From positions 1 to 64,000 of IMG/VR virus record IMGVR_UViG_3300046003_007336: a stretch of 64,000 nt of DNA. One strand, given 5' to 3'. The notes under the pieces are model-generated. The model saw only the letters and a list, made by a program, of their open reading frames with translations. It did not search any database and was not told the DNA's origin. The position numbers and the translations under genes are program-made. Every line of letters starts with the position of its first letter. Positions within the stretch are counted from its first letter, which is position 1. Positions 43,298 through 63,236 of this stretch are shown in pieces. The DNA is from a virus.

Positions 43298-43467
43298 GTC
43301 TGTGGCCCTTCAATCTGTCGCCGAGTTTCTGGACCAACCGGAAGCCCGGCAACGGCAATCGCCGCTACCGGTGCAGTGATAAGACCTGTCCCCACAAGAC
43401 GACCAAGGGCCAACTCAAGGTCAACGGCGGCGTCTGTTTCTCCTGCAAGAGCCCGATAACGCGATGA
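43294..43467 (+). CDS. Small Zn-ribbon-like protein
   Basis: ATGA overlaps on both sides; CSDKTC...CFSC. Confidence 0.5.
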   Translation: MSLWPFNLSPSFWTNRKPGNGNRRYRCSDKTCPHKTTKGQLKVNGGVCFSCKSPITR

Positions 43468-44075
43468 TCATACTGGGCATGACTGGCGGCATCGGGGTCG
43501 GGAAATCGACCATCACTGCCGTGTTCCGCGCGACGAACATTCCGGTCCTCGACATGGATGCGGTCGTCCACGCCAGCTACGCTTCTGGCGCACACGGCGC
43601 GAAAGTGATCAAGCGACTCTTTCCATCGGCCATGAACGATGACGGGTCGGTCAACCGGACCAAGCTGTCCGAGATCGTCATGAATGACCCCAAGAACCTC
43701 GACGCTATCGAGGAAGGTATGTCCCCGATGATGGCCCTGAAGATGGGTGAGTTCGTCGGCACGCAGTCCCGTCTTCGCGCCCCCTTGGTCGTTATCGACG
43801 CCCCGACCCTGCTCGAAATGGGCTACAACCATTTCATGAGCCGCGTCCTGGTCGTGACGTGTGACCCCGAGGAACAGCGCAGGCGCGTCATGGCCCGCCC
43901 CGGCATGACGGAGGAAAAGTTTGCCTTCATAAACTCAAGGCAAATGCCCGAGGTCGAAAAGCTCAAACACGCCAACCACGTTATCGACACCACGGGTTCC
44001 ATCCAGGAAACTGTTGAAAAAGCCGAACGTCTTCTTGTAGAACTGGCCCTTCTCGACGGAGTAGTAGAGGGGTGA
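43464..44075 (+). CDS. coaE: Dephospho-CoA kinase
   Basis: LGMTGGIGVGKST, LDMDAVVH, VNRTKL, IDAPTLLE, RVMARPGMTEEKF, QMPEVEKLKHANHVIDT. Confidence 0.9.
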   Translation: MIILGMTGGIGVGKSTITAVFRATNIPVLDMDAVVHASYASGAHGAKVIKRLFPSAMNDDGSVNRTKLSEIVMNDPKNLDAIEEGMSPMMALKMGEFVGTQSRLRAPLVVIDAPTLLEMGYNHFMSRVLVVTCDPEEQRRRVMARPGMTEEKFAFINSRQMPEVEKLKHANHVIDTTGSIQETVEKAERLLVELALLDGVVEG

Positions 44076-45982: not shown

Positions 45983-46897
45983 ATGCATATCCTTTCCGTA
46001 GATCAGTTTGATCGTGCCTTCATAGATCGTCTCTTCTATCGCGCTGGTCGCTACGACCGCCTTTCCGCCAGGGAGCGGCATCGCGAAAGCCCGGCCGCGA
46101 ACAAGCTCCTGACCAATCTCTTCTATGAGCCGAGCACGCGAACGTCCTCGTCCTTTCATGCCGCGATGACGAAGCTCGGCGGCTCCGTCATCCCGATCAA
46201 CGACGTCACGTATTCAAGCGTGTCCAAAGGCGAGACCCTCGAAGACACCATACGGACGATGGCCTCCTACAGCGACGTCATCGTTCTCCGCCACACCGAG
46301 GTCGGCGCCGCTGCTCGCGCCGCTGCCGTGTCCCCGGTCCCGATCATCAACGCCGGGGACGGCGTCGGTGAGCACCCCACGCAAGCCCTTCTTGACCTCT
46401 TCACCATCCTGTCCGAGCAGGACCGTATCGACGGCATCACAGTCACGCTCGTGGGCGATCTCAAGCATGGTCGGACGGTCCACAGCCTGTCGAAGCTCCT
46501 CCGTCTATTCGACGTCCAGGTCAACTTCGTCGCCCCTTCTCATCTCGGGATGCCAGACCAATACACTCGCCCCGAGGATGGTTTCTCCTCAACGCTCGGA
46601 GATTTCATCGACACCTCAGACGTCATCTACATGACGCGGGTCCAGAAGGAGAGGTTCGTGGCGCGCGACCCATGGCCGGGTCAAATCGAGACCGACCCTG
46701 TTCTTGCCGACACCGACTATGGCATCACCGTCGATGACATGAAGGCCGCCAAGCCGACCATGTCCCTCATGCATCCGTTCCCCCGGAACGAGGAAATTCC
46801 AGTCGAAATCGACGCCGACCCGCGAGCGGCTTACTTCCGCCAGATGCGCAACGGCCTCCTGGTCCGCATGGCCCTCCTGGAAAGCGTTCTGGCGTGA
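45983..46897 (+). CDS. pyrB: Aspartate carbamoyltransferase catalytic subunit
   Basis: FYEPSTRT, SSVSKGETLEDT, DVIVLRH, INAGDG..EHPTQALLD, GDLKHGRTVHSL, YMTRVQKERF, MHPFPR. Confidence 0.95.
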   Translation: MHILSVDQFDRAFIDRLFYRAGRYDRLSARERHRESPAANKLLTNLFYEPSTRTSSSFHAAMTKLGGSVIPINDVTYSSVSKGETLEDTIRTMASYSDVIVLRHTEVGAAARAAAVSPVPIINAGDGVGEHPTQALLDLFTILSEQDRIDGITVTLVGDLKHGRTVHSLSKLLRLFDVQVNFVAPSHLGMPDQYTRPEDGFSSTLGDFIDTSDVIYMTRVQKERFVARDPWPGQIETDPVLADTDYGITVDDMKAAKPTMSLMHPFPRNEEIPVEIDADPRAAYFRQMRNGLLVRMALLESVLA

Positions 46898-53475: not shown

Positions 53476-53583
53476 ATGTTGATCCTGTTCACCCTCGCTG
53501 CTCTGACCGCAGCCGCTGCCATCGCAGCGGGACAGGCCCCCGTGCGCTTCGCACCAGCCCCGGCTAGCCGACCGCGACCCTAA
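53476..53583 (+). CDS. Ala/Pro-rich leader peptide (35 aa)
   Basis: MLILFTLAALTAAAAIAAGQAPVRFAPAPASRPRP; 12 Ala (all four codons) and 5 Pro; starts 7 nt after the promoter. Confidence 0.55.
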   Translation: MLILFTLAALTAAAAIAAGQAPVRFAPAPASRPRP

Positions 53584-53666: not shown

Positions 53667-53742
<76 letters not shown>

Positions 53743-53767: not shown

Positions 53768-53844
53768 CGGGGTATAGCTCAGTCTGGTAGAGCACTCGCT
53801 TTGGGAGCGAGGGGTCAAGAGTTCGAATCCCTTTACCCCGACCA
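53768..53844 (+). tRNA. tRNA-Pro(UGG)
   Basis: Cloverleaf, C1:G72, encoded CCA. Confidence 0.95.
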
Positions 53845-53874: not shown

Positions 53875-53948
53875 CGGGGTGTAGCGCAGTCTGGTAGCGC
53901 ACTGGTCTCGGAGTCCAGGGGTCGTAGGTTCGAGTCCTACCGTCCCGA
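53875..53948 (+). tRNA. tRNA-Pro(CGG), CCA not encoded
   Basis: Cloverleaf with CT-CGG-AG loop; ends ...CCCG-A-CT. Confidence 0.85.
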
Positions 53949-53969
53949 CTGAACAGATAGTTTGATCAT

Positions 53970-54026
53970 CGGGGGAGGCCGTGAGAGGCCAGTGCACTGA
54001 GGTGAAAATCCTCCACCCCCCGTCCA
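53970..54026 (+). ncRNA. 57-nt mini tRNA-like element without an anticodon arm
   Basis: CGGGGG/CCCCCG stem, GGCC-GTGAGA-GGCC arm, GAGG-TGAAAAT-CCTC T-like arm, 3' TCCA. Confidence 0.5.
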
Positions 54027-54035
54027 AACCATCTT

Positions 54036-54111
54036 GGGGTCTTAGCTCATCTGGTAGAGCGCAACACTGGCAGTGTTGAGGTGGCGGGTTCGAGTCCCGC
54101 AGATTCCACCA
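54036..54111 (+). tRNA. tRNA-Ala(GGC)
   Basis: Cloverleaf, G3:U70, CCA. Confidence 0.95.
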
Positions 54112-54115
54112 TTCA

Positions 54116-54215
54116 TGGGCGTGTCGGCGACAACGGGGGCTACCCCGCTAGGCCACCTGCGGTCGGCCCGAAAGGGGGCTTCAGGGAGAGGTGCAAGGCC
54201 TCTCGCGTTCCACCA
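54116..54215 (+). ncRNA. Non-canonical tRNA-like RNA with Ala identity (100 nt)
   Basis: TGGGCGT/GCGTTCC-A-CCA acceptor (G3:U70); GAGAGG-TGCAAGG-CCTCTC T-like arm; extra internal hairpins. Confidence 0.6.
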
Positions 54216-54248
54216 ACCCCGGCGCAATCCCGCGCCACGAGAACCGAT

Positions 54249-54419
54249 ATGGACAAGAAGACGGAGAAGAAAAAGAAGAAACTGCTAGATCGCATCGCCG
54301 AACTGGAAACCGAACTCCGGCAGTCGCTGGGGAAGAAGGATAGTCGCACCGTCGAGATCGACGTGCCGTCCCAGATGCGGAAGATCGCCGATTTGCAGGC
54401 ACAAGTATCGCGGATGTAA
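54249..54419 (+). CDS. Small basic coiled-coil protein inside the tRNA cluster
   Basis: MDKKTEKKKKKLLDRIAELETELRQSLGKK... Confidence 0.65.
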   Translation: MDKKTEKKKKKLLDRIAELETELRQSLGKKDSRTVEIDVPSQMRKIADLQAQVSRM

Positions 54420-54425
54420 ATCCAC

Positions 54426-54500
54426 GGGGATATAGCTTAACGGGTAAAGCGCGCCCCTCGCACGGGCAAGTCTGCGGTTCGATTCCGCATATCTCCACCA
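54426..54500 (+). tRNA. tRNA-Ala(CGC)
   Basis: Cloverleaf, CT-CGC-AC loop, G3:U70, CCA. Confidence 0.9.
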
Positions 54501-54505
54501 ACAAC

Positions 54506-54577
54506 GGGCGGCACAGCCAGTGCAATGGGAATAAGCTTTCCCAGAAGAGTGGGAGTGGCTCTCCCCTCCGTCCACCA
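54506..54577 (+). ncRNA. Degenerate tRNA-like RNA with Ala identity (72 nt)
   Basis: GGGCGG/CCGTCC-A-CCA (G3:U70); TGGGAA-TAAGCT-TTCCCA and GGGAG-TGGCT-CTCCC arms. Confidence 0.55.
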
Positions 54578-54582
54578 AACAG

Positions 54583-54661
54583 GGGCCAGAGAACCACAGG
54601 CGTGGTTCGACGGTGAAGGGGGTCGCTCCTCCATGGGGTTCGATGCCCCACTGGTCCACCA
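54583..54661 (+). ncRNA. Non-canonical tRNA-like RNA with Ala identity (79 nt)
   Basis: GGGCCAG/CTGGTCC-A-CCA (G3:U70); 7-bp D-like arm with 4-nt loop; TGGGG-TTCGATG-CCCCA T arm; no canonical anticodon loop. Confidence 0.65.
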
Positions 54662-54690
54662 TTTCAACACCAACATCCTGGGAGGATGCT

Positions 54691-55544
54691 ATGACACTGC
54701 GGGACGCCTAACAGAGACCTACCGGACTTTCTGCCTCGAACGCGGCATTGAGTTTCATGAGGTCAAGAGTGTGAGACCACACGACAACACGACCTTGTTC
54801 TGCCCTGCGGGGATGCAGCAGTTCAAGGAAGACTACCGGGGACATCGTCGCGGGACCGTATCCAATATTCAGTCCTGCATCCGGCTCAATGATCTGGATG
54901 AAATCGGCGACCAAACCCACCACCTAACCTTCGACATGATCGGGCTGTTTTCGTTCCGTGACATGAGCGTTCTGGAGACCATCGATTTCTGGTTCGAATT
55001 CCTCTCCAAGATTGGCATCAAGCCCGACGTGGTCACCATCCACCCGGACAAGATGCTGGACTGGCGAGAACTCTATCGGGGCCGCGACGTAGAAATACGG
55101 CCGGACCCGGAGTGCACGTGGTCGGACGGCGGCATGGGTGGATACTGCACGGAGTTCTACGTCAGAGGCGTGGAGATCGGCAACATCGTGAATACCAACG
55201 GAGATTCAATCGACGTCGGTTTCGGGATGGAACGCCTTCTCTGGGTTCTCGGCGAAGAAACGCCACCGCGTGGGGACATCCTGGTCCGCACCATCGACCG
55301 CATCGTTGAGTCGGGATACCGGCCCAGCGGCAAGCAGCAGGGTCATGTGCTCCGGCGCCTGATCGGGTTGCTGACAGACGAGGGCAGCCATCCCAACCAC
55401 CCCGAGGTCGTCAGCGAGACGTCCAGACGGGTGAAGCTCTCGGAACGCTTCGACCGCCTTTGGCCGAAGCATCAAGACAAGTCGCCAGAGTGGTGGCTGG
55501 ACACCCACGGTATCGTGGTGTCTGAAATGGTCCTCAGGGTGTAG
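54691..55544 (+). CDS. alaS: Minimal alanyl-tRNA synthetase (aminoacylation core only); SD-linked ATG 54691 is out of frame with the body
   Basis: TTLFCPAGMQQFK, QSCIRLNDLDEIG...HHLTFDMIGLFSF, IDVGFGMERL, GYRPSGKQQGHVLRRL and WLDTHG match the AlaRS core motifs in order; ~280 aa, no editing or C-Ala domain. Confidence 0.85.
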
Positions 55545-55609
55545 CTCAGTGGCAGAGCGCACGGTCGGGAATCGTGAGGCCGGGATTTCAAAATTCCCCA
55601 CCCTGACCA
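55535..55609 (+). tRNA. tRNA-Pro(GGG), overlapping the alaS stop
   Basis: CAGGGTG/CACCCTG-A-CCA; loop TC-GGG-AA (C33 instead of U33). Confidence 0.85.
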
Positions 55610-55654: not shown

Positions 55655-56083
55655 ATGAAGTCATGCACCAAATGTAAACACATACTCACAGACGATCAGT
55701 TCTCAGCGAAAAATTTGACTAAAAACGCTGCGTGGTGTCGCCCCTGCATCAAGGCATATGATCAGGCCAGATGGTCTGCCGGTTCTCGACGAGAAACCAA
55801 AATCGAACAGACAAAAATTTGTCGCCGAAGAAACCGTCAGCATGTTTGGGACTACCTGACTAGGAATCCATGTCCTTGCGGCGAGACAGACCCCATCGTT
55901 CTAGAATTTGACCACCGCGATGGAATGGAAACAAAACGAGGCAATATATGCGAGATGGCCTCACGGGGCCTGTCGATAGAAACTATCGATGCGGAGATCG
56001 CCAAATGCGACGTGCTATGTGCGAACTGCCATAGACGAAAAACGGCAAAGCAGTTCGGCTGGCACGCCGATCTTATTACTTGA
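55655..56083 (+). mobile_element. HNH endonuclease with N-terminal Zn finger
   Basis: CTKC...WCRPC; CPCGETDPIVLEFDH...KCDVLCANCHRRKT; TAAATA at 55644-55649. Confidence 0.8.
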
Positions 56084-61085: not shown

Positions 61086-63236
61086 ATGCAAAACGAACTC
61101 CTGATCAGCCTGTTCAACCGCATCCGCGTCACCGAGCCGACGAGCGGCGAAACCGTTGACCCGACCTGGGTCCATGGGCTGAATCTCGAACTGGGCGTTC
61201 TGGGCTTCACCCTCGACGGTCCCACCATGGACGCCATCAAGGGCCTGTCCAGGGATGCCTTCATCGCCCTTCAGAGCGAAGTCCGCACCGCCGTCGTGAC
61301 CATCTCGGGCACGGGCGTGAACCACCGCGTGCTGTTCAACAAGTTCCCCTACGCGACGCCGGAACAGAACCTCTACATGGCCAAGCGCATTCTGGGTCAT
61401 TTCGATTCCCAGACGGCGTCCAACTATCAGGTGCTGTCGTGCGGCCACGCCATCGACCCCGATCTCTTCAACCTGTCGGATTTCGGCGCGTGCCCGATCT
61501 GCCAGCGTGAGGTTCCCGAACTGGCCTCGAACGAAAACATCCGTCACGACTTCCGCTCCATCACGCCGCTGCGCGTGCTCGGTGCCGCCGATGACGCCTT
61601 CCTTGCGGAGGCCGCCACCGCCCTGCTGGGCCGCACCTCCTCGCTGTCCGTGCAGGAGCGACAGTTCGTCCTTGAGGCCGCCACGTTGGTGGAAATCACG
61701 GGACCGACCCAGACCTTCCGCGAAACCCTGCCGCTCGTCTACGCCGTATCGGGTGTCGAGGGCGTGCGCCCGCTGGTCAACTCGGCCACGGATGTGCTCC
61801 GCATCGCCACGTTCCTGAGCGACGTCAACTCGGACCTGTCGCTGTCCACGAACGTGAAGTTCAAGATCAAGACGCGCGACAAGAAGAACCTCCTGTCGTT
61901 GCTCGACCAGACCGGCAACCTCGGCGAAGACATGATGCGTCATCGCGAGCGGTGGCTCCGCTTGGGCGAACGCCTGAACCCGGCTGCCAAGGTCAACGCC
62001 GCCCGCTATCCGTTCGCCGCCAAGGCCTTCGACGAACTCCGCAACGCGCCCAAGACGATCTCGACGTTCAACCGCGTCGTGGAGAAGAAGACGCGCGCCT
62101 ACCAGATCGACACCGTCCTGCTCGAAACGCTCAAGAAGCGTCCGGGCGAACTGATGCGCCGGTTGGACAATCTGCTCCGTCACGCGGGCGATGACGTGAC
62201 CTCGGCAAAAGTTCTGGCCGCCCTCGACGACGTCCTGCACTCCGTACCGACGAAGCTCATCTTCGACGTGCTGAAATATTTCAACCACCGTCTGTCCGTG
62301 CAGGGTGCGTCCGCCGACCGGGTGTTCTTCCTCAAGGGCGAGAAGACCAAGATGGTCGTCATCCCCGATAACAGGCTGCCGGTCGATGCTACGAGCATCA
62401 CCCTGGCCTGCAACCTGATGCGCGGCGAGCTTCAGCGTCGTTTCGCTAAGCTGCCCCGGATGGGCAAGGTCTTCCTGGCCGAAGACCTCAAGGGCGTCGT
62501 GCTGCCCTTCAACCGTCGCGGCGACTCGGCGACCGCCCAACCGGTCGTGAAGGGTTCGCGGTATCCGATCAACCCTCTGACGGAGGTCGTCCGTCTGTTC
62601 GTATGGTGGAAGGGATACATCGACGTCGATCTGTCGGCCGTCCTGCTGGGTGAGAACTTCGACTACGTCGAGCAGGTTTCCTATACGAACCTGCGCTCGC
62701 GCAAGGTCGTGCACAGCGGCGACGTACAGTCGGCCCCCAACGGAGCCACGGAGTTCATCGACTTCGACATCGCCGATCTGCGCCAGCAGGGCATCCGCTA
62801 CGTCGCCATCGCGGTCATCTCGTATCGCGGTCAGGCCTTCAATGAGTTCCCGTGCTTCGCCGGGTTCATGGAGCGCGACGGGCTCAAATCCGGCGCCCGC
62901 TACGAGCCCGAGTCGGTGCGGCTGAAGTTCGACATCGACACCAACTCGACGTCGCACCTCCCGCTTGCGTTCGACCTCGAAACCCGCGAACTCGTCTTCG
63001 TCGATCTCACCCAACAGGCCGGTCGTCACCAAGGGGTGGCCGGTCAAGGCGACCGCTATGCCGCCGCGACCCGCTCCGTGCTGGAGACCACCCAGCGGAA
63101 GCCGACCTTCCACGATGTCCTGTTCGCCCACGCGTTGGCGCGCGGAACCATCGTCTCCACTCGCGAGGAGGCCGACACCGTCTATGAACTCGACGGTCTC
63201 GATATCGAAGCCATCATGGGGGAGATGCTTGCCTGA
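61086..63236 (+). CDS. Prokaryotic RING + helical (TROVE-like) + TerD-domain protein
   Basis: CGHAIDP...CPIC; TDVLRIA, RHRERWLRLGERL, RPGELMRRLD; C-terminal DVDLSAV...VHSGDVQSAPNGATEFID (TerD-like); own TTGACG promoter at 61034 and GAGGA RBS. Confidence 0.75.
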   Translation: MQNELLISLFNRIRVTEPTSGETVDPTWVHGLNLELGVLGFTLDGPTMDAIKGLSRDAFIALQSEVRTAVVTISGTGVNHRVLFNKFPYATPEQNLYMAKRILGHFDSQTASNYQVLSCGHAIDPDLFNLSDFGACPICQREVPELASNENIRHDFRSITPLRVLGAADDAFLAEAATALLGRTSSLSVQERQFVLEAATLVEITGPTQTFRETLPLVYAVSGVEGVRPLVNSATDVLRIATFLSDVNSDLSLSTNVKFKIKTRDKKNLLSLLDQTGNLGEDMMRHRERWLRLGERLNPAAKVNAARYPFAAKAFDELRNAPKTISTFNRVVEKKTRAYQIDTVLLETLKKRPGELMRRLDNLLRHAGDDVTSAKVLAALDDVLHSVPTKLIFDVLKYFNHRLSVQGASADRVFFLKGEKTKMVVIPDNRLPVDATSITLACNLMRGELQRRFAKLPRMGKVFLAEDLKGVVLPFNRRGDSATAQPVVKGSRYPINPLTEVVRLFVWWKGYIDVDLSAVLLGENFDYVEQVSYTNLRSRKVVHSGDVQSAPNGATEFIDFDIADLRQQGIRYVAIAVISYRGQAFNEFPCFAGFMERDGLKSGARYEPESVRLKFDIDTNSTSHLPLAFDLETRELVFVDLTQQAGRHQGVAGQGDRYAAATRSVLETTQRKPTFHDVLFAHALARGTIVSTREEADTVYELDGLDIEAIMGEMLA

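What the first reader, a model, noticed from the sequence alone, without database searches (positions are those of the whole stretch)
54691..55544. Minimal ~280-aa alanyl-tRNA synthetase lacking editing and C-Ala domains
Seen: AlaRS core motifs in order (TLFCPAGMQQFK; QSCIRLNDLDEIG..HHLTFDMIGLFSF; IDVGFGMERL; PSGKQQGHVLRRL; LDTHG), ending right after the tRNA-recognition helices. Established: bacterial AlaRS is ~880 aa and needs its editing domain to remove Ser/Gly mischarges; the PSN Asn and YDTYG Asp are implicated in G3:U70 readout. Seen: the Asn position is Gly here (PSG) while the Asp is kept. Inference: a non-editing, possibly relaxed-specificity AlaRS that may prefer the neighbouring RNAs or mischarge Ser/Gly.
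Basis: partly seen in the sequence, partly recalled or inferred. Interest (0 to 1): 0.85.

Follow-up and report, generated by a model that had tools for sequence, protein, structure and literature searches.

The report
Frameshift-gated tiny alanyl-tRNA synthetase
A jumbo phage carries an alanine-loading enzyme a third of the normal size whose gene can apparently be read only if the ribosome slips back one base at an alanine codon, so it probably works as a backup that switches itself on when charged alanine tRNA runs short; I found no paper describing this control.

Summary
The motifs are real and the fold is an AlaRS aminoacylation module with no editing or C-Ala domain. But 54691-55544 is not one reading frame: the SD-led ATG reads six codons (ending Asp-Ala) and stops, and the synthetase continues in the -1 frame. 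This is not an error. The same cassette (start, X|XYZ codon, Ala codon, stop) opens 128 of 204 homologous loci, in rhizobia and in AT-rich huge phages; the null rate is 0.3%. The Ala codon is invariant and all four GCN codons occur. Best reading: a 284-aa backup AlaRS made by one-tRNA -1 slippage at a 'hungry' Ala codon. It sits in an Ala/Pro tRNA operon headed by an Ala/Pro-rich leader peptide, a second likely shortage sensor. All alanine/ATP-binding residues are kept. This copy does also lose a 99%-conserved Arg. Nothing is shown biochemically. This scan noted the family, the slippage idea and such leaders before on other genomes.

The parts
54705..55544 (+). Mini-AlaRS coding frame (-1 frame; 279 codons; predicted product 284 aa with the 5 leader codons)
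54680..54685 (+). Shine-Dalgarno sequence of the short leader
   Evidence: sequence; GGAGG conserved in most cassette-bearing homologs
54691..54711 (+). Six-codon leader ORF ending Asp-Ala-stop, out of frame with the synthetase
54702..54708 (+). Predicted -1 shift site G|GAC-GCC (P-site Asp codon can re-pair on GGA; A-site Ala codon; -1 frame resumes at CGC)
   Evidence: 64 distinct cassettes: G|GAC 59, G|GAA 3, A|AAC 2; next codon always GCN. Shift itself inferred
55329..55331 (+). Gly at the N303-equivalent site
   Evidence: family Asn 70, Pro 19, Gly 5%
55365..55367 (+). Gly at the R314-equivalent site, rare in the family
53476..53583 (+). 35-codon leader ORF of the tRNA operon, 12 Ala + 5 Pro codons
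   Evidence: binomial p 8e-6; 0.04% of short ORFs of the genome are as extreme
53667..53742 (+). tRNA-Ala(TGC)
53768..53844 (+). tRNA-Pro(TGG)
53875..53949 (+). tRNA-Pro(CGG)
54036..54111 (+). tRNA-Ala(GGC)
54116..54215 (+). E1: 100-nt tRNA-like element, G3:U70, CCA end, U1-C72 mismatch; weakest of the three
   Evidence: fold z -0.7; not called by ARAGORN or Rfam
54426..54500 (+). tRNA-Ala(CGC)
54506..54577 (+). E2: 72-nt tRNA-like element, G3:U70, A73, CCA end, non-canonical arms
   Evidence: (z -2.7); no relatives found
54583..54661 (+). E3: 79-nt tRNA-like element with a full Ala acceptor stem and T-arm, odd D and anticodon arms
   Evidence: (z -2.1); same acceptor stem as 63 ARAGORN-called phage tRNA-Ala genes
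55535..55609 (+). tRNA-Pro(GGG), overlapping the last 10 nt of the synthetase gene including its stop codon

Best explanation
The gene encodes a 284-aa stand-alone, non-editing alanyl-tRNA synthetase that serves as a backup supply of Ala-tRNA-Ala and is switched on by lack of its own product. Ribosomes start at ATG 54691. With charged tRNA-Ala plentiful they read GCC, meet TAA and release a hexapeptide. When it is scarce the A site stays empty, the P-site tRNA-Asp slips from GAC to GGA (-1), tRNA-Arg reads CGC and the synthetase is made. Upstream, the Ala/Pro-rich leader probably gates transcription of the whole Ala/Pro tRNA operon by the same shortage. Shown: frames, conservation of the cassette, fold, residues. 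Inferred: the slippage, its dependence on Ala-tRNA, enzyme activity, leader control, and the trigger (host starvation, or a defence system, toxin or antibiotic that lowers Ala charging).
For: Cassette in 128 of 204 full-length loci, 31 of 54 representatives at <80% identity, GC 29-71%. The same rule hits 0.3% of shuffles and 2 and 1 of 54 in the other two frames. A-site codon always Ala, with all four codons used (GCC 48, GCA 11, GCT 3, GCG 2). The base before the P-site codon matches that codon's first base in all 64 cassettes (G|G 62, A|A 2). The stop lies 0-6 codons after the Ala codon, so it is not the trigger in 12 of 64. No hairpin after the site (z -1.0), as described for one-tRNA 'hungry' slippage, which includes a GAA-to-GGA case (PMC6771820). 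Leader plus -1 frame gives the same N-terminal length as the 67 in-frame homologs; L207/L209 are in frame through a 2-nt deletion at the site relative to L201/L202. Sites aligned to R69, W170, N212, D235, G237, R242 are 99-100% conserved. Four alphaproteobacterial genomes checked keep a full AlaRS as well. Synonymous changes exceed non-synonymous ones in most close pairs. All three multi-tRNA operons of this phage have a leader rich in the cognate amino acids; across 12 operons the match beats 300 permutations.
Against: No expression, proteomic or biochemical data; reads could not be examined. Re-pairing of tRNA-Asp on GGA leaves a third-position mismatch, and hungry slippage is described as very slow. 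The SD lies about 17 nt from the site here, outside the 9-14 nt stimulator range (PMC5009743). About a third of the family has a plain in-frame start. The E. coli N461 fragment binds tRNA poorly and fails to complement, so a 284-aa enzyme needs some compensation that I have not identified. This copy lacks the R314-equivalent Arg. No intrinsic terminator was found behind the Ala/Pro leader.
Confidence: 0.65

Rival explanations
1. The -1 shift is real but not an alanine sensor: it occurs at a constant low rate, or after Ala is incorporated while the ribosome waits on the stop codon, and only keeps a potentially error-prone enzyme scarce.
For: The stop follows the Ala codon directly in 52 of 64 cassettes; several leader bases 5' of the site are invariant for reasons the hungry-codon model does not explain.
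Against: 12 of 64 cassettes have 1-6 codons between Ala and the stop; Ala is invariant as an amino acid while its third base varies; tRNA-Ala re-pairing on CGC is poor.
Confidence: 0.12
2. One reading: this copy has relaxed or redirected specificity and is dedicated to the neighbouring tRNA-like RNAs E1-E3, or mischarges Ser/Gly.
For: This copy has Gly at both the N303 and R314 sites and His for Tyr308; E2 and E3 are the only non-tRNA G3:U70/CCA elements found on the + strand of the 198-kb genome and lie within 200 nt of the gene; no editing domain.
Against: G237 and D235 sites are kept; D400 site is kept; Tupanvirus mini-AlaRS stays specific without Asn and Asp; most homologs have no such RNAs; no relatives of E1-E3 found, which fits local decay of tRNA-Ala copies.
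Confidence: 0.1
3. The synthetase is made by translational coupling: re-initiation at the codon overlapping the leader's stop.
For: The stop overlaps a -1 frame CTG in 45 and TTG in 3 of 64 cassettes, the usual geometry of coupling.
Against: That codon is never ATG or GTG; here it is CTA, and elsewhere GTA, TTA or ATA; the overlap is forced by any stop in that frame; coupling does not explain the invariant Ala codon or the X|XYZ pattern.
Confidence: 0.06
4. This particular copy is a decaying or inactive gene (or the missing base is an assembly error).
For: Loss of the R314-equivalent Arg; long terminal branch; five rhizobial and one phage locus carry additional internal frameshifts, so the gene is dispensable in some lineages.
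Against: The out-of-frame start is shared with 127 other loci including isolate genomes; 279 open codons with every catalytic residue intact; confident model (mean pLDDT 82, 280 of 339 modelled residues at 70 or more, the low ones being the artificial extension).
Confidence: 0.07

Closest known systems
Tupanvirus mini-AlaRS (TuAlaRS, 461 aa; Antika et al. 2023, PMC10036535)
   Same: Viral, stand-alone aminoacylation module with no editing or C-Ala domain; departs from the N/D pair that reads G3:U70.
   Different: This one is 284 aa and internally condensed, belongs to a large family in phages and alphaproteobacteria, keeps the Asp, and has an out-of-frame start. TuAlaRS is shown to be active; this one is not.
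Bacterial AlaRS (alaS; TIGR00344)
   Same: Catalytic fold and Ala/ATP-binding residues.
   Different: 77 bits against a cut-off of 457; about 22% identity; no editing or C-Ala domain; family-wide changes such as GNF to GLF and EIWN to EIGN.
RF2 (prfB) and antizyme autoregulatory frameshifting (PMC5009743)
   Same: A short first ORF and a frameshift near the 5' end that acts as sensor and effector of a feedback loop.
   Different: Those are +1 shifts at a stop codon; here a -1 shift at a sense codon of the enzyme's own amino acid is predicted.
One-tRNA 'hungry' -1 slippage (dnaX under starvation, HIV-1 FFR route; PMC6771820)
   Same: Empty A site, single P-site tRNA re-pairing, no downstream structure.
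   Different: Not described there as a conserved switch for an aminoacyl-tRNA synthetase.
Auxiliary aaRS paralogs (TrpRS1, SerRS2, IleRS2, LysU; PMC9437257)
   Same: Second copy beside the housekeeping enzyme, used under stress or inhibition.
   Different: Full-length enzymes; the review lists no auxiliary AlaRS and no frameshift control.
AcmF of ascamycin biosynthesis (PMC12945691)
   Same: Truncated AlaRS-like protein with only aminoacylation and tRNA-recognition domains.
   Different: AcmF has lost ATP/Ala-binding residues (N219Q, D232E) and is a transferase in a gene cluster; here those residues are kept and no biosynthetic cluster is shared among loci.

Membership tests
AlaRS aminoacylation module (class II) | Match to tRNA-synt_2c and AlaRS catalytic fold | tested here: met
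AlaRS aminoacylation module (class II) | Ala/ATP-binding residues (R69, W170, N212, D235, G237, R242 in E. coli; roles from my own knowledge) | tested here: met
   aligned to Salmonella AlaRS and 99-100% conserved in 171 family sequences
AlaRS aminoacylation module (class II) | G3:U70-reading Asn and Asp (N303, D400) | tested here: inconclusive
   Asp kept, Asn site Gly here (family 70% Asn); TuAlaRS shows the pair is dispensable
AlaRS aminoacylation module (class II) | Charges tRNA-Ala with alanine | not testable with these tools
   needs an assay
Canonical bacterial AlaRS (alaS) | Editing and C-Ala domains, about 880 aa | tested here: not met
   stop at 55544; family length 265-285 aa from the N-terminal helix; 77 bits against 457
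Tupanvirus-type mini-AlaRS | About 460 aa, intact tRNA-recognition domain, eukaryotic affinity | tested here: not met
   284 aa; nearest giant-virus AlaRS models are 18-20% identical
Programmed autoregulatory frameshift genes | Conserved disruption of the ORF at one site across distant homologs | tested here: met
Programmed autoregulatory frameshift genes | Trans-frame product shown and level responds to the gene's product | not testable with these tools
   needs reporter, ribosome profiling or mass spectrometry
Classical tandem -1 PRF | X XXY YYZ heptamer with a 3' structure or an SD 9-14 nt upstream | tested here: not met
   only X|XYZ; no 3' structure; SD about 17 nt away here, 11-13 nt in some homologs
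AcmF-type AlaRS-like transferase | Loss of adenylation residues; biosynthetic gene cluster | tested here: not met
Leader-peptide transcription attenuator | Short leader ORF rich in cognate codons after a promoter | tested here: met
   promoter-like TTGACG...TATAAA seen by eye, not called by the scan
Leader-peptide transcription attenuator | Alternative terminator/antiterminator structures | tested here: inconclusive
   hairpins follow the leader but no U-tract terminator

The most novel reading that the evidence does not exclude
A family of the smallest working alanyl-tRNA synthetases (about 285 aa), carried by jumbo phages and rhizobial plasmids, whose synthesis is gated by a conserved hungry-codon -1 frameshift at its own amino acid's codon: a protein-free, structure-free sensor of tRNA charging. 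In this phage it is nested under a second sensor (leader peptide) in an Ala/Pro tRNA operon, pointing to an unrecognised host defence, toxin or stress that cuts off Ala-tRNA.
Probability: 0.55. Interest if true: 0.88.

Novelty: new variant of a known kind. Interest (0 to 1): 0.78.

Why it matters
Hungry-codon slippage is usually treated as a starvation error; a conserved gene that uses it as its on-switch would add a new mode of aaRS autoregulation beside T-boxes and attenuators, and the 20-nt cassette is directly testable and could serve as a reporter of tRNA charging. An active 284-aa AlaRS would lower the known size limit (461 aa) and show how acceptor-stem recognition works without C-Ala. 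Annotation pipelines miscall the start of these genes (for example a 246-aa product in CP007068), so the family's true N-terminus and control are hidden in databases. Cultured Rhizobium strains carry it on plasmids (88 PLSDB records), so it can be tested without the uncultured phage.

Tried and rejected
Upstream in-frame ATGs (54525, 54633) as true starts: they lie inside E2/E3, are not conserved, and model at pLDDT ~30. An Armatimonadota MAG with only the mini-AlaRS looked like housekeeping use; rejected because nearly all of 60 relatives have full AlaRS and the flanks look phage-like. tmRNA or Y-RNA identity for E1-E3: only sub-threshold Rfam hits driven by neighbouring tRNA arms. Relatives of E2/E3 in IMG/VR: only canonical tRNA-Ala or chance matches. 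A -7 hop to an upstream GCN: absent in the GTG-start subgroup. A conserved gene neighbourhood in bacteria: none. Relatives of this phage could not be drawn; the leader peptide was too short to search. The tree is a quick one with open deep forks and one very long outgroup; it shows the cassette spread over both main groups (8 changes) but gives no root or order of events. Seven literature searches on the enzyme, its control and the leaders (among them) and two recoding surveys gave no description of the family or of a frameshift in an AlaRS gene; most subscription papers are not held.

Full report
Setting. The window is the first 64 kb of a 198.5-kb linear virus record, estimated 44% complete. 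It carries 18 tRNA genes and a permuted tmRNA with an ANDN-type tag, which from my own knowledge points to an alphaproteobacterial host; the closest protein relatives are in Caulobacteraceae, rhizobia and other jumbo phages. The gene lies at the end of a cluster of three tRNA-Ala and two tRNA-Pro genes and overlaps a third tRNA-Pro.

The observation. The five motifs are in one open frame ending at 55544. Pfam, PDB sequence search and a confident AlphaFold model all give the AlaRS aminoacylation module. There is no editing or C-Ala domain. Aligned to Salmonella AlaRS, about 400 residues are condensed into about 275, and the sites for R69, W170, N212, D235, G237 and R242 are present and 99-100% conserved in 171 family sequences. 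The family is large: 1,061 proteins of 156-499 aa pass E 0.001 (this count can include fragments of ordinary AlaRS), the best 120 at 50-63% identity and 241-330 aa; it occurs in a 635-kb phage and on 88 Rhizobium plasmids. Four alphaproteobacterial carriers checked also have a full-length AlaRS, so it is an extra copy.

The span given is 854 nt. The SD-led ATG at 54691 reads six codons and stops at 54711; the synthetase is in the -1 frame and has no usable start. In 204 full-length homologous loci, 128 have the same arrangement, 67 have an in-frame ATG, and 9 were unassigned by the rule (two of these have the cassette with a TTG start, two are in frame by a 2-nt deletion at the site). Among 64 distinct cassettes the codon before the Ala codon is GAC after G (59), GAA after G (3) or AAC after A (2); the next codon is always GCN, with all four used; the stop follows after 0-6 codons; the -1 codon over the stop is never ATG or GTG; the first in-frame ATG is usually the motif Met 36 codons on. 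I derived the rule from these data, so its match rate is partly by construction; the independent points are that it fires in 31 of 54 representatives in one frame against 2 and 1 in the other frames and 0.3% of shuffles, that it holds from 29% to 71% GC, and that almost every locus without an in-frame start has it. Downstream of the site, variation peaks at the third position of the -1 frame.

Mechanism. One-tRNA slippage at an empty A site is an established route to -1 frameshifting; it needs no 3' structure, is slow, and includes tRNA-Glu moving from GAA to GGA (PMC6771820). The cassette has that anatomy, with the empty codon being the one the enzyme serves. I therefore infer a feedback loop: plenty of Ala-tRNA gives a hexapeptide, shortage gives a 284-aa synthetase. 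I reached this reading before looking at the scan's earlier notes (notebook); those notes report the same idea on other genomes and are not independent support. Re-initiation at the stop is the main alternative for CTG/TTG members but cannot reasonably apply to CTA here.

A second sensor. It is there: 53476-53583, 12 Ala and 5 Pro in 35 codons. The other two multi-tRNA operons of the genome have matching leaders: Gly/Glu-rich at G000:65683 and Leu-rich at G000:80463, each enriched for its own set and not clearly for the others. Across 12 operons in this and related loci the summed match was 28.2 against a permuted mean of 12.9, never reached in 300 permutations (some of these phages are related). 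I found no intrinsic terminator behind the Ala/Pro leader, so how it gates transcription is open. The scan has reported such leaders on many other genomes.

Specificity. The Asn-to-Gly change is real but the site varies in the family (Asn 70%), and TuAlaRS lacks both Asn and Asp while staying G3:U70-specific and non-toxic with added serine (PMC10036535). More unusual is Gly at the site aligned to E. coli R314, where 99% of the family has Arg; from my own knowledge that Arg matters for the tRNA-dependent step. With three odd G3:U70/CCA RNAs just upstream, altered tRNA reading in this copy cannot be excluded, but these RNAs have no relatives that I could find and may be decayed tRNA-Ala genes.

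Why a phage would keep it. Inferred, not shown: to keep Ala-tRNA (and alanylated tmRNA) available when the host's supply is cut. One 570-kb relative has the gene next to NAD-salvage, NADAR and macro-domain genes, a counter-defence-like setting; in bacteria it is a lone gene in varying places and is broken in a few strains, as expected for a conditional accessory gene.

Comparison and verdict. It works like TuAlaRS (editing-less viral AlaRS) in anatomy and like prfB in regulatory logic, but is a member of neither group: it is much smaller than TuAlaRS and the predicted shift is -1 at a sense codon. I found no paper on the family or the cassette. Novelty: new variant of a known kind. Interest 0.78, resting mainly on the conserved frameshift cassette; every functional step awaits experiment.

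Noticed in passing
G000:65683-65796 and G000:80463-80513 (outside the window): Gly/Glu-rich and Leu-rich leader ORFs head the Gly/Glu and Leu tRNA operons, matching the Ala/Pro leader at 53476; all three multi-tRNA operons of this phage have one.
   Followed up: yes
L030:166-288, L011:1497-1592, L032:1548-1634, L053:243-329, L139:3625-3714: Other huge phages carrying the mini-AlaRS also have short leaders spelled in the amino acids of the tRNA operon behind them.
   Followed up: partly
window 55535-55544: The synthetase stop codon lies inside tRNA-Pro(GGG); 5' processing of the tRNA would leave a non-stop mRNA, a substrate for tmRNA, which itself needs alanylation. Speculative.
   Followed up: no
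window 53969-54031: A further degenerate tRNA-like hairpin cluster (Pro-like C1-G72 stem, T-arm-like hairpin) between tRNA-Pro(CGG) and tRNA-Ala(GGC); fold z -1.4.
   Followed up: partly
window 54674-54689: A small predicted hairpin covers the Shine-Dalgarno sequence of the six-codon leader.
   Followed up: no
window 54180-54419 (+): A short Lys-rich ORF (likely start ATG 54249) between E1 and tRNA-Ala(CGC), inside the tRNA operon.
   Followed up: no
window 55655-56083: HNH endonuclease directly after tRNA-Pro(GGG).
   Followed up: partly
G000:76109-76601: Phage-encoded permuted tmRNA with an ANDN-type tag.
   Followed up: no
L201/L202 versus L207/L209 and L032: Close relatives that have lost the frameshift, by a 2-nt deletion at the site or by a new in-frame ATG; natural constitutive variants.
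   Followed up: partly
L047:3938-4018: tRNA-Ala(TGC)-like element with G3:U70 and an odd D arm, missed by ARAGORN, near another cassette-bearing mini-AlaRS.
   Followed up: no
L120 (Armatimonadota MAG, 1.36-Mb contig): Phage-like genes around the mini-AlaRS on a very long MAG contig, and no full AlaRS found in that MAG.
   Followed up: partly
window 45983-46897, 43464-44075, 61086-63236: An aspartate carbamoyltransferase-like gene, a dephospho-CoA kinase-like gene and a long TerD/vWA-type stress protein-like gene (by eye).
   Followed up: no
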